Notes under the pieces: generated by a model
The model's database searches: none
The model's input: the letters and a program-made list of their open reading frames with translations, nothing else
Told to the model about the DNA's origin: nothing
Assembly: GCA_048213135.1 (NCBI GenBank)
Contig: PS015051.1
Span: 38,398 to 91,900, forward strand
Length of the DNA: 53,503 nt
Reading direction: 5' to 3'
From: Reclinomonas americana ATCC 50394
Taxonomy: Eukaryota
Shown: positions 16,032 through 19,294 of the stretch, piece after piece
Layout of the letters: each line of letters begins with the position of its first letter
Position numbering within the stretch: the first letter of the stretch is position 1
Position numbers and translations under genes: made by a program

Positions 16032-19000
16032 ATGAGGTGTGGTTGTGTTCGAGTTTGTTGTCCTCTTACAGCACGAGTGCTCACACAAACGAGCGCTTCG
16101 TTGTTTGTTTGCGTGTGTGTGTGTGTTTATCTGTGCGCTTGTGCGAGCAGTGCAAGGAAGAGAGCGTGGGAGCTGGGGAAGGATGGCAATGTGGAGGCTC
16201 TGCGTGCCTTGGTGGAACTTGAGGGTGCTCACACTCTGCTGGCGAAGGAGGAGTGTGGCATGGATGGCAGCTCGGCATTCTACTGCGCCGCAGCCGCAGG
16301 TCAGCTTACAGTTTTGTCGTATTTGTGGCACGAGAGTGGTGTCGGCCCGGAACTCGCTCAACTGGTCACCAACGATGGCTCGACACCACTGATTGCGGCT
16401 GCCACCAAAGGCCGAGTGCAAGTGGTGCAGTGGCTGCTTGACGACGCACAACGATTTCCGTCAGATATGGTGATGGCAGTCACCAACGAGCTGCGGTGGA
16501 CTGCGCTTCATTTCGCTGCGATGTATCGCCATGAAGCAATTGCGCGACTCCTTGTCACAGCGTATCCCGACCTCCTTCGTGTGCCCGGAAAGGATGGCAT
16601 GACGGCGGTACAATTAGCACGCAGCATCAAGAATGAAGCAATGTTCAAGTTGCTGGATGAGTATGCTGCTGCCCAGGTGAGCTTCCATGTTGCACGGTTC
16701 TCCAGTCTTCAATGCATTGTGTGTCTCTGACCCGTTGTTCCGTTTCTCCGGACAGGAAAAGATCGATGCCGCCGTGGCACGCCAGGTCGCCGAAAAAGAC
16801 AGGCAATGTACCGAGCTCCAGCGCGATCTTGCTGTTGAGCGGCAGGAACGACAGGAGCAGCAAGAAGAGTGGGAAAGGCAGCGACGAGAGCGCGATGAAA
16901 CAATTGCCCAACTGCAGCAGGCCATCGAGGAAATGCGGCGATCCGGCGCTGGAGCTGAGACCCAGCGACCTGATGCCAATGAATGGCAGCGAACGATAGC
17001 GGATATGCAGGCTGACCGCGATCTGTGGCGACAGAAAGCTGAACAGTTTGATCGCCAACTGCGCAGCGTCTTCTCCATGGACTATCTTAGGTTCGTTCTT
17101 AAATGTGAGTGTCTCTTTCGTGAGGTAATTTTTCTCACATGACACTCGGTACATATTGGCACAGCGATCGCCGACGGATCCTGTTGCTTGTTGACGTCAT
17201 TCAAGATGTTGCTCCATTGGCTCTCGGTTCCCTTTTGAATGAACTCGTCGCTGGCTTCTTCCCTGGCGAGTTCGACATTGAGAATCTCTGCTTCTCTGGT
17301 TCACCGAGGCCACCGCGGTAACTGACCTAATGCCCTATGCCGAGTGGTGTCCGCTGCGCTCATTCAGCTTCACAGATATTGTCGGGCGTATCTGGACAAG
17401 CGAGACAACAGAAAAATCTACTTGCGCCCTGTGAAGTTGTTCCCTTCCAACTTCGATGTGATCCGCGTGTTCAATCGGAGTGGACTGACCGATGGCATGG
17501 ATGTGTCGCTGCTCTGCACGTTGCTGTTGTACATCTCCTTTGTTCCTGCCGCTGTTTGTCGAGATTCGGATCTGTTGGTCAAACGCGTGCGTCTGGACCC
17601 TCACACGAACGAAGATCGGCTGGCGGTGCGCTTGCTCGCCGACCCCGCTAAGGTGTGTTTTCTCCATGTGCTGACATCTGTTAACGTTGTTGCTGCTTCT
17701 CATTCGATTCTCTGTTCTGCAGATTCAAGCTGTGGAGATTTTGCGAGATGTGCGCCATCGCGTGGCTCATTTGGCACGTCGTTCTGCACTCGAAGACGCG
17801 GAGTATGTGACTATCATGCGGCTTATTCGCGACTCGCTCCACACGCTGTTTCCTGATGGACAGCATGAGAGCATACGTCGTCTTTTCCAAGCATACGACA
17901 GTTGCCAATCTCTGCCTCCCCTATCTACTGTATTGGTCACTCATAGTCAGTCTGCCGCACAGTCGTAAGCCAAATCGATGCGACTGCCGAATTGGTGACG
18001 CAGAGGACAGCAGCGCTTGCAATCACGGCACCCGAGGTGACTGTCTCTGAGCTCGTTTTTTCATCCAGACAGATCGCCAATGGTATGCGCACGTATCTTT
18101 TCTTGCGCTCTTGCAAGCAAGTCAGGGACTGATGCGTTTGTACGTGTGCACAGGACAAAACTCAGTCTTTCTTGCCTCTCTACGGCTCCATGGTGAGATC
18201 CGGGCTGTTGCATACAAGCGATATGTTGTTAGTCAGCATGCTCGCTCGGCGGACTGGAAACGCACTCGTGAGTGCTTTGAGAACGAACATTCGCTGCTGA
18301 TGTCACTCGAGTTGCGTGCTTTCGTTGTCAAGGTGCATAGTTTTCTGCAGTCGCTCACTAGCCAACAGTCATCCAAACATCGTGAACTTGTTGGCCGTGT
18401 GCAACGACGACCCGAGTGGTCTTGGTCTCATTCTTGAATACGTTGGTCAAGAAGGAGTGGATGGCAAAGCGGAGACGCTGGACGACCTCGTGAAGGATGA
18501 ACATGTGACAACTGCACAGCTGCTCTGCCTGCTCTTGCAAGTGGCGTCAGCGGTTGTGTACATGCACTCACGTCGAGTGGTGCACCGTGATCTCAAGCCG
18601 CAGAGTTGCGTATGTGATTCAGGTGAAACGCGAGAAGCTTTCTCGCTCTCCTAACCATGCATTGTGTACAGACATTCTCGTCAGCGAGGATCGACTGGTT
18701 GCCAAGGTGTGCGACTTTGGAGAGGCCAAACTTCACGGCACTCTCGGAAAGATGCAGTCGACCCATGGAACGGCGGTGTATGCTGCACCAGAAGTGATGC
18801 TGAACCAGAAGGTACACAACGGACGCACCTCTTCATCTTCGTGGCGACATGCGCTGTCCTCACATTTCCGTTTCCATTATCACCAGTACGATGAACGAGC
18901 AGACGTGTATGGGCTTGGCTCCCTGCTCTGGTTTAGTACTACACACGCAGAGCCGTTCGACGGTGCATCGCTGCTGGATATTGTGCAATGCATGCGTGAC

Positions 19001-19294
19001 GGTGTTCCGCCAGGCAATCTTGACGATCCTGCCGTGCACGCAACTGTGCCAGAAGACATGCGCAATCTGATCCGACAGTGCTGGGTTGCGTGCTGAAGCA
19101 AGGAGGGGAGATTTGTCGACTTGTTCTCATCGTGTGAGATGCAGAGGCCGCAAGCATCGCGTGTGTCGGCATCATATGTACTCAGCGAACTGAGGCGCTT
19201 GTATGACTTGGCGGCTGCTGCTGCACCAGCGACAGCGGCTGCAATGACTGTGGCGGGAGGTGCCGGATCGGCTGCTGCTGGCCCGAGCAAGTGA
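16032..19294 (+). CDS. Ankyrin-repeat / coiled-coil / DZIP3-like HEPN / TKL-like protein kinase multidomain protein
   Basis: Frame-consistent exons 16032-16036 (start uncertain), 16151-16676, 16756-17090, 17165-17317 (donor uncertain), 17376-17652, 17723-17900, 17963-18082, 18154-18310, 18369-18604, 18672-18811, 18887-19084, 19145-19294. Ankyrin: DGSTPLIAAATKGRVQVVQWLL, WTALHFAAMYRHEAIARLLV. HEPN-like: DVSLLCTLLL...LRDVRHRVAH. Kinase: VAYK, HPNIV, HRDLKPQNIL, DFG, GTAVYAAPE, DVYGLG. Confidence 0.85.

What the first reader, a model, noticed from the sequence alone, without database searches (positions are those of the whole stretch)
16032..19294. Ankyrin-coiled coil-HEPN-kinase protein: RNase L-like parts in a different order in a protist
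Seen: N-terminal ankyrin repeats, a ~110-aa coiled coil, a helical domain and a Ser/Thr kinase, all in one frame-consistent gene. The helical domain reads RILLLVDVIQDVAPLALGSLL...LFP...DVSLLCTLLL...VEILRDVRHRVAH...EYVTIMRLIRDSL. Established: HEPN RNases use an R-x4-6-H motif and act as dimers; DZIP3/hRUL138-like HEPN domains carry DITLL..LLR and LRxxRNxxxH; vertebrate RNase L is ankyrin-pseudokinase-KEN(HEPN). Inference: a sensor (ankyrin), dimerisation (coiled coil) and RNase/kinase effector, possibly an independently assembled antiviral or cell-suicide system.
Basis: partly seen in the sequence, partly recalled or inferred. Interest (0 to 1): 0.82.

Follow-up and report, generated by a model that had tools for sequence, protein, structure and literature searches.

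The report
Ankyrin, coiled-coil, HEPN-like, kinase fusion gene
An unannotated eukaryotic gene joins ankyrin repeats, a dimer-forming coiled coil, a helical domain that weakly resembles an animal-type HEPN RNase domain, and an apparently active protein kinase, which would be an RNase L-like toolkit in a new order if the HEPN call holds.

Summary
Window 16032-19294 (+) reads as one 11-exon gene of 867 codons. It has ten GT-AG introns of 49-79 nt, and nine must be removed to keep the frame open. Exon 1 is ankyrin repeats (Ank_2, E 1.5e-17). Exons 8-10 match consecutive parts of the Pkinase profile, and the catalytic motifs are intact. Exon 2 is modelled as a parallel in-register homodimeric coiled coil (score 0.51, best control 0.00).

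The HEPN reading is only partly supported. Exon 5 carries RHRVAH. None of 149 control pieces hit that family. Exons 3-4 match nothing. I could not test the spliced domain, found no homologue in any collection, and got no informative RNA reads.

My reading, at about 0.5: a dimeric ankyrin-kinase signalling protein with a divergent DZIP3-type HEPN module. It is not a member of the RNase L/Ire1 family. The lineage is unidentified.

The parts
16032..19294 (+). Whole coding region of the proposed single gene: 11 exons, 867 codons plus stop
   Evidence: frame-consistent GT-AG model. No gap between coding pieces exceeds 79 nt.
16032..16676 (+). Exon 1: about four to five ankyrin repeats. The first ~40 codons are doubtful (Cys/Val-rich, GT-repeat DNA)
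   Evidence: Ank_2 E 1.5e-17, Ank_4 8.1e-16, Ank 8.3e-16; in-frame ATGs at 16032 and 16260.
16756..17090 (+). Exon 2: charged helical region modelled as a parallel in-register dimeric coiled coil in two segments (exon residues 6-60 and 80-105)
   Evidence: heptad and charge scan. (homodimer score 0.51, best control 0.00); no Pfam family above noise.
17165..17317 (+). Exon 3: start of the helical domain (RILLLVDVIQDV...), proposed HEPN helix 1 region
   Evidence: No Pfam hit.
17376..17652 (+). Exon 4: middle of the helical domain with LFP and DVSLLCTLLL (proposed helix 2 with acidic residue) and a long insert
   Evidence: No Pfam, atlas, phmmer or PDB match. The AlphaFold2 model of this piece alone is poor (pLDDT 40.3).
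17500..17514 (+). DVSLL motif
17723..17900 (+). Exon 5: C-terminal part of the helical domain. It is the only piece with a HEPN_DZIP3 match
   Evidence: PF18738 E 0.17, 12.1 bits, residues 6-54 against profile 83-131 of 144; helices 2-20, 25-42, 49-58, pLDDT 89.4; embedding leads.
17753..17770 (+). RHRVAH, a candidate Rx4H catalytic motif with a polar H after the R
   Evidence: Feature definition from PMC3710099.
17963..18301 (+). Exons 6 and 7 (17963-18082, 18154-18301): linker and kinase N-lobe. The glycine loop is degenerate, VAYK lysine is present, and FENEHSLL supplies the alpha-C glutamate
   Evidence: No Pfam hit on these exons alone.
18351..19084 (+). Exons 8-10 (18351-18604, 18672-18811, 18887-19084): kinase core with HRDLKPQ(N), DFG, APE
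   Evidence: Pkinase 47.7, 28.7 and 13.7 bits on consecutive profile segments; only generic kinase hits in the PDB.
19139..19294 (+). Exon 11: end of the kinase (RP of subdomain XI), an Ala-rich tail and a TGA stop
   Evidence: An alternative CAG acceptor at 19144 removes 2 codons.

Best explanation
One gene encodes a protein of about 867 aa in four parts. These are four to five ankyrin repeats, a parallel dimeric coiled coil, a helical domain of about 200 aa whose C-terminal hairpin is a divergent DZIP3/hRUL138-type HEPN module carrying R-H-x3-H, and a divergent but catalytically competent Ser/Thr kinase. Shown: the domain content of exons 1 and 8-10, the frame-consistent splicing model, and the presence of the motif. 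Modelled: coiled-coil homodimerisation in register. That would hold the two helical domains side by side, because they start about 8 residues after the coil, and the two kinases as well. Inferred: the ankyrin repeats bind a protein or small ligand. The dimer lets the kinases trans-autophosphorylate. It also lets two Rx4H motifs form the composite site that HEPN RNases need, so output is phosphorylation together with RNA cleavage or RNA binding. The logic resembles Ire1/RNase L, but the protein is built from a different HEPN family placed before, not after, an active kinase.
For: Gene model. Ankyrin. Kinase: exons 8, 9 and 10 hit Pkinase positions 56-127, 129-171 and 174-244 in order; VAYK, HRD, DFG and APE are present. 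HEPN: exon 5 has a single Pfam match out of 24,736 families, and it is the pre-named family PF18738 (E 0.17, 12.1 bits, profile 83-131 of 144). That is the part of the profile expected for the helix 3-4 half. The per-family probability is about 0.17/24736 = 7e-6, before allowing for about 12 distinct pieces tried and for other HEPN families that would also have counted. 0 of 149 control 59-aa pieces from the window hit PF18738 or any HEPN family. Internal calibration: true kinase exon 10 scores only 13.7 bits, and kinase exons 6, 7 and 11 score nothing, so single exons of real domains in this gene sit at this level. The sequence meets features that PMC3710099 lists: Rx4H, a polar N/D/H after the R, and an acidic residue in an upstream helix (D of DVSLL). 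AlphaFold2 on exon 5 alone (pLDDT 89.4) puts RHRVAH in the last half of a helix, followed by a loop and a second helix. The atlas lists HEPN_DZIP3, DUF4559 and HEPN_Swt1 clusters among the named neighbours of exon 5. Coiled coil: homodimer score 0.51, best of 3 controls 0.00. The mark was reached by 21 of 30 proteins solved as pairs of one chain and 0 of 23 solved as single chains; on eukaryotes by 17 of 29 and 0 of 30. The runs agree in at least 85% of contacts and partner pLDDT is 76. Contacts are residue i with residue i.
Against: 12.1 bits is far under the 27-bit Pfam cutoff. 16 of 145 non-genuine control pieces also got some family at E <= 0.17, so the strength alone is ordinary. Exons 3 and 4, two thirds of the domain, match nothing in Pfam (14 piece-scans gave one hit), in the atlas or in the PDB. 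All atlas named hits score below 0.9. The tool notes that only 3 of the ten best hits with a family agree, which it rates as 'that family is probably wrong'. phmmer of exon 4 against 1.84 billion representatives found 0 proteins, and the word-based searches found none. Motif conservation is therefore untested. There is no transcript evidence. The coiled-coil pass may reflect the model's memory of solved coiled coils. The first segment is very charged with weak heptads and could be a single alpha-helix. RNase activity is not known to me for any DZIP3-type HEPN (recalled, not checked).
Confidence: 0.5

Rival explanations
1. The middle region is not a HEPN domain. It is a lineage-specific helical linker or regulatory domain, and the protein is an ordinary ankyrin-coiled coil-kinase signalling protein in which RHRVAH occurs by chance.
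For: No significant match for any of the three exons. The PF18738 hit is sub-threshold, and 16 of 145 random pieces reach that strength with some family. The atlas's own agreement criterion is not met. Fold searches with the exon 5 model return only generic helical matches. Ankyrin-kinase fusions with long helical spacers recur in protists (earlier finding e1-676747, not checked here).
Against: The only Pfam family returned is the one predicted beforehand, on the expected part of its profile. 0 of 149 controls hit it. An independent method (embeddings) also lists DZIP3-type and Swt1-type HEPN clusters. Rx4H with a polar residue after the R, placed late in a helix before a loop, fits the published definition.
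Confidence: 0.33
2. The domain is HEPN-derived but no longer an RNase. It serves as an RNA-binding or dimer-stabilising module that regulates the kinase, which is the only enzymatic output.
For: PMC3710099 describes inactive, binding-only HEPN domains such as Swt1 and gives motif conservation in the DZIP3 family as only 'mostly conserved'. The kinase keeps all catalytic motifs.
Against: R, the polar residue after it, and H are all present, which PMC3710099 treats as the mark of active versions.
Confidence: 0.2
3. The model is wrong in kind: either two adjacent genes (ankyrin-coiled coil, and helical-kinase) or a non-expressed pseudogene.
For: No RNA read was laid (no test). The 5' end is uncertain. 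Donor sites beyond GT are weak, and one intron is only 49 nt. No database protein matches the gene.
Against: No gap between coding pieces exceeds 79 nt, so there is no room for a terminator and promoter. All ten gaps have GT-AG ends, and 9 of 10 acceptors are CAG. The spliced frame is open for 867 codons, while retaining any of 9 introns gives early stops. Codon-position GC is typical of coding sequence. Kinase exons are colinear with the Pkinase profile.
Confidence: 0.08

Closest known systems
Vertebrate RNase L (ankyrin repeats, pseudokinase, KEN/HEPN RNase)
   Same: The same three domain classes in one chain: ankyrin repeats, a protein-kinase fold, and a HEPN-superfamily module with Rx4H. 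Dimer-dependent logic is plausible in both. The RNase L architecture is as in the KEN row of the table in PMC3710099.
   Different: The order is ankyrin, coiled coil, HEPN-like, kinase. The HEPN-like part is not KEN: no KEN family hit on any exon. The kinase keeps Lys, HRD and DFG, so it is probably active rather than a pseudokinase. A coiled coil provides the dimer. No 2-5A system is known here.
Ire1 (kinase followed by KEN RNase)
   Same: An active kinase coupled to a HEPN-superfamily module that works as a dimer.
   Different: No lumenal or transmembrane part. The HEPN-like domain precedes the kinase and belongs to another family.
DZIP3/hRUL138-type HEPN proteins of animals and Capsaspora (Pfam PF18738)
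   Same: The only Pfam family matched by exon 5. Fusion to ankyrin repeats is listed for this family in PMC3710099. The motif pattern is an acidic residue in an upstream helix and R-polar-x3-H.
   Different: The match is sub-threshold and covers only profile positions 83-131. [quoted passage not shown] Papers found for the family name concern animals only (listing and abstracts).
Ankyrin-kinase multidomain proteins of protists (earlier finding e1-676747: Naegleria ankyrin, coiled coil, kinase, PARP)
   Same: Ankyrin repeats, a long helical region and a kinase joined to a further enzymatic module.
   Different: The added module there is PARP and lies after the kinase. That finding was not checked here.

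Membership tests
HEPN superfamily | Rx4-6H motif | tested here: met
   RHRVAH at 17753-17770. Definition from PMC3710099.
HEPN superfamily | Residue after the R is polar (N, D or H) | tested here: met
   It is H. Definition.
HEPN superfamily | Motif at the end of helix 3, entering the loop to helix 4 | tested here: inconclusive
   AlphaFold2 on exon 5 alone gives helix 2-20, loop 21-24, helix 25-42. The motif is at residues 11-16, in the last half of the helix, 4 residues before its end. This is a fragment model without the rest of the domain.
HEPN superfamily | Four-helix up-down bundle | not testable with these tools
   The domain is split over three exons in three frames, and the spliced sequence could not be submitted. 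The exon 4 model is poor (pLDDT 40.3). Fragment fold searches are uninformative.
HEPN superfamily | Conserved acidic residue in helix 2 | tested here: inconclusive
   D of DVSLL lies 61 residues upstream of the R. A helix at VSLLCTLLLYI appears only in a low-confidence model.
HEPN superfamily | Motif conserved among homologues | not testable with these tools
   No homologue found.
Pfam PF18738 HEPN_DZIP3 | Score at or above the gathering cutoff (27 bits) on the domain | tested here: inconclusive
   Exon 5 alone scores 12.1 bits, E 0.17, covering 49 of 144 profile positions. Exons 3-4 score nothing. The whole spliced domain was not scored.
RNase L / Ire1 (kinase followed by KEN domain) | KEN-type RNase domain C-terminal to the kinase | tested here: not met
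   After the kinase there is only a 51-aa exon with an Ala-rich tail and no Pfam hit. No KEN family was reported on any exon.
Eukaryotic protein kinase (Pfam PF00069) | Profile match above cutoff and catalytic motifs | tested here: met
   Exon 8 alone scores 47.7 bits against a cutoff of 31.7. Exons 9 and 10 continue the profile. VAYK, HRD, DFG and APE are present. The glycine loop is degenerate.
Ankyrin repeat | Profile match above cutoff | tested here: met
   Ank_2 scores 64.3 bits against a cutoff of 27.3.
Dimeric coiled coil | Self-association in register | tested here: met
   Model only: score 0.51 against best control 0.00, with i-to-i contacts in a heptad-like pattern. Heptad occupancy is weak in residues 237-264.

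The most novel reading that the evidence does not exclude
A eukaryote outside the annotated collections has independently assembled a kinase-coupled HEPN ribonuclease from a DZIP3-type HEPN domain, a family so far reported mainly in animals and Capsaspora. Ankyrin repeats act as the sensor and a coiled coil as the dimeriser. This would be a convergent counterpart of RNase L/Ire1 in which an active kinase sits downstream of the RNase.
Probability: 0.25. Interest if true: 0.75.

Novelty: new variant of a known kind. Interest (0 to 1): 0.5.

Why it matters
If the HEPN call and RNase activity hold, this would be a second, independently built way of coupling a protein kinase to a HEPN nuclease. It would extend the DZIP3-type HEPN family to a new architecture and possibly a new lineage. 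It would also give a compact, naturally dimeric protein for testing how dimerisation gates HEPN RNases. If the call does not hold, this is one more lineage-specific ankyrin-kinase signalling protein.

Tried and rejected
- **Own genome:** none is held, so I could not search for paralogues or for OAS/cGAS-like genes. Pfam on 141 window ORFs of 90 aa or more showed only a second kinase and PNO1.
- **RNA:** no RNA holder was listed. Four RNA runs added by species label were laid and 0 reads mapped. The tool calls this no test.
- **Homologue searches:**
  - Exon 4 and exon 5 with 'longer' lengths found none.
  - The kinase exon 9-10 stretch found none.
  - phmmer of exon 4 against 1.84 billion representatives gave 0 hits.
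  - A metagenome scan gave 3 loci. tblastn with the spliced protein showed only isolated 29-32-aa matches, which I rejected as chance.
  - A viral scan found none.
  - Earlier-findings look-ups by place, sequence and words found nothing relevant beyond two Naegleria notes.
- **Family libraries:** PADLOC and NCBIfam gave nothing on exons 3-5. Pfam gave nothing on six sub-pieces of exons 3-4.
- **PDB sequence search:** exons 4 and 5 gave nothing meaningful.
- **Atlas:** exon 4 gave no usable hit.
- **Lineage:** Rfam and tRNA scans of the window returned nothing. The PNO1 exon scores about the same against the yeast-type and human-type PNO1 chains in the PDB, so it gives no lineage signal.
- **Supplement:** the supplementary alignment of PMC3710099 is not held as text, so I could not compare with the published DZIP3-family alignment.
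- **Not run:** the spliced (joined) domain was not submitted to any profile, fold or complex tool.
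Full report
**What is there**

The + strand between 16032 and 19294 is cut into many short open frames. Read with the sequence, they join into 11 exons through ten GT-AG introns of 49-79 nt. Nine of the ten acceptors are CAG. The spliced frame is 2604 nt: 867 codons and a single terminal stop. Retaining any of nine introns brings an early stop. Intron 9 is 75 nt, in frame and free of stops. GC by codon position is 0.66/0.43/0.57, against 0.49 in the introns. No non-coding gap inside the gene exceeds 79 nt, so the ankyrin and kinase parts cannot be two ordinary genes with their own control regions.

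Two in-frame alternatives exist:
- A GTGAGT donor at 18268 with an acceptor at 18340. This removes the kinase alpha-C region, and I judge it less likely.
- A CAG acceptor at 19144, which removes two codons.

The 5' end is uncertain. 16032 is the first in-frame ATG. The following 40 codons lie on GT-repeat, pyrimidine-rich DNA that ends in a CAG at about 16150 and looks like an acceptor. The next in-frame ATG is at 16260.

**Domains that are secure**

- **Ankyrin repeats.** Exon 1 scores Ank_2 E 1.5e-17 and 64.3 bits against a cutoff of 27.3. By eye there are four to five repeats.
- **Protein kinase.** Exons 8, 9 and 10 match Pkinase profile positions 56-127, 129-171 and 174-244, at 47.7, 28.7 and 13.7 bits. 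This colinearity also supports the splice junctions. The VAYK lysine, an alpha-C glutamate (FENEHSLL), HRDLKPQ(N), DFG and APE are present. Only the glycine loop is degenerate, so the kinase looks active.
- **Kinase family.** It is divergent. PDB hits are generic: CDK1 at 7.5e-8 for exon 8, and CDPK, TAK1, CTR1 and ZAK at about 1e-4 for the C-lobe.

**Coiled coil**

Exon 2 (111 aa) is 41% charged and 15% glutamine. It has two helical segments separated by a G/P-containing break. Heptad occupancy is weak in residues 237-264 and good in 286-320.

A homodimer prediction with controls supports binding without showing it:
- The score is 0.51 and the best of 3 controls is 0.00.
- The mark was reached by 21 of 30 proteins solved as pairs of one chain and 0 of 23 solved as single chains. 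On eukaryotes the figures were 17 of 29 and 0 of 30.
- The runs agree in at least 85% of contacts, and partner pLDDT is 76.
- Contacts are residue i with residue i in a heptad-like pattern over residues 6-60 and 80-105, which is a parallel in-register dimer.

Coiled coils are common among solved structures, so the pass may come from the model's memory.

**The helical domain: evidence for HEPN**

The domain is spread over exons 3, 4 and 5 in three different frames. Only single exons could be given to the outside tools.

Evidence for the HEPN reading:
- **Pfam.** Exon 5 exactly (59 aa, carrying RHRVAH) has one Pfam match out of 24,736 families. It is PF18738 HEPN_DZIP3, E 0.17, 12.1 bits against a cutoff of 27. 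Query residues 6-54 align to profile positions 83-131 of 144. That is the family named in advance, on the part of the profile expected for the helix 3-4 half.
- **Control.** 149 random stop-free 59-aa pieces of the window gave 0 hits to PF18738 or any HEPN family. However, 16 of the 145 pieces that are not from real domains reached E <= 0.17 with some other family. The strength of the hit is therefore ordinary. What counts is its identity. The per-family probability is about 7e-6. That figure must be discounted for about 12 distinct pieces tried, and for the other HEPN families that I would also have accepted. By recollection there are a few tens of these.
- **Internal calibration.** In the same gene the true kinase exon 10 scores only 13.7 bits, and kinase exons 6, 7 and 11 score nothing. 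Silence on exons 3-4 is therefore weak evidence against.
- **Embedding search.** For exon 5 the named neighbours are DUF4559 (0.87), HEPN_DZIP3 (0.86 and 0.77) and HEPN_Swt1 (0.75).
- **Published definition.** The sequence fits features listed in PMC3710099 (passages read): Rx4-6H, a polar N/D/H after the R, and an acidic residue in an upstream helix.
- **Fragment model.** AlphaFold2 on exon 5 alone (pLDDT 89.4) places the motif late in a helix, before a loop and a second helix.

**The helical domain: evidence against**

- Exons 3 and 4 match nothing.
- The atlas's named hits are below 0.9, and its own agreement rule (3 of 10) rates the family as probably wrong.
- The exon 4 model is poor, with pLDDT 40.3.
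- Fragment fold searches are uninformative.
- No homologue was found anywhere, so conservation of R and H cannot be judged.

I put DZIP3-type HEPN ancestry at roughly 0.6-0.65. I put the whole best explanation, with its mechanism, at 0.5.

**How it would work**

Shown: the domain content and the presence of the motif. Modelled: a parallel dimer. Inferred: everything else below.

The coiled coil ends about 8 residues before the helical domain. A parallel in-register dimer would therefore hold two helical domains, and beyond them two kinases, side by side. It is established for KEN, PrrC and other HEPN RNases that the Rx4-6H histidine and arginine are catalytic (PMC3710099). From my own knowledge, these enzymes act as dimers or tandem pairs.

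The likely scheme has three steps:
1. The ankyrin repeats bind a ligand or partner.
2. The dimer geometry changes and the kinases trans-phosphorylate.
3. The paired HEPN-like domains cleave or bind RNA.

Whether the module is an RNase, an RNA binder or only structural is open.

**Comparison with known systems**

The protein is not a member of the RNase L/Ire1 family. There is no KEN domain after the kinase. The order is different, and the kinase is probably active. It works like that family only in the sense that it combines ankyrin repeats, a kinase and a HEPN-superfamily module in a dimer.

[quoted passage not shown] It describes the family as mainly in the animal lineage, with expansions in Nematostella, oyster and Capsaspora. 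No kinase fusion is listed.

A full-text search for the family's names found 9 papers. The 7 listed all concern animals (listing and abstracts only). A search combining HEPN, protein kinase, ankyrin repeats, domain architecture and protist found no description of this architecture (listing only). InterPro architecture tables were not available to me, so 'not described' rests on those two searches.

**Context and source**

The neighbours are housekeeping or signalling genes:
- A PDK1-type kinase with a PH domain lies on the - strand.
- PNO1 is at about 42989-43282.

The scaffold has 18 N gaps and many (CT)n and (GT)n tracts. The lineage could not be identified. 'Protist' is unverified beyond the sequence being a eukaryote with short spliceosomal-type introns.

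**Verdict**

This is a real, unannotated multi-domain gene. The ankyrin, coiled-coil and kinase parts are solid. The HEPN part is plausible but unproven. I rate it a new variant of a known kind if the HEPN call holds, with interest 0.5.

Noticed in passing
window 9394-12390, - strand: A PDK1-type kinase gene. There is a kinase exon with HRDLKPENILL and DFG (Pkinase E 2.4e-17) and a PH_3 domain piece at 9394-9570 (E 2.9e-05). It is interrupted by introns made of CT-rich minisatellite-like repeats that translate as PVPHPCPSSLSLIP-like units.
   Followed up: partly
window 42989-43282, + strand: A highly conserved PNO1 KH-domain exon (KH_PNO1_2nd E 4.4e-28). It scores about the same against the yeast-type and human-type PNO1 chains in the PDB. 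It is flanked by low-complexity CT-rich sequence.
   Followed up: partly
window 18812-18886, + strand: Intron 9 of the target gene is 75 nt, in frame and without a stop. Retaining it would insert 25 residues between the APE motif and kinase subdomain IX without breaking the frame.
   Followed up: partly
window 18268-18340 and 19085-19144, + strand: Two alternative in-frame splice choices. A consensus GTGAGT donor at 18268 paired with an acceptor at 18340 would delete the kinase alpha-C region. A CAG acceptor at 19144 removes 2 codons relative to the GAG acceptor at 19138.
   Followed up: partly
whole window: There are 18 runs of N (20-967 nt) and very frequent (CT)n, (GT)n and (GA)n tracts. 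Few ORFs have Pfam matches: 2 of 141 ORFs of 90 aa or more outside the target gene. There are no tRNA or Rfam hits. The source organism was not identified, and no annotated protein in the searched collections matches the target gene.
   Followed up: partly
window 16080-16150, + strand: A GT-repeat and pyrimidine-rich tract ending in CAG lies inside the presumed first exon. It looks like a 3' splice or trans-splice acceptor, so the true N-terminus may lie upstream or at the ATG at 16260.
   Followed up: no
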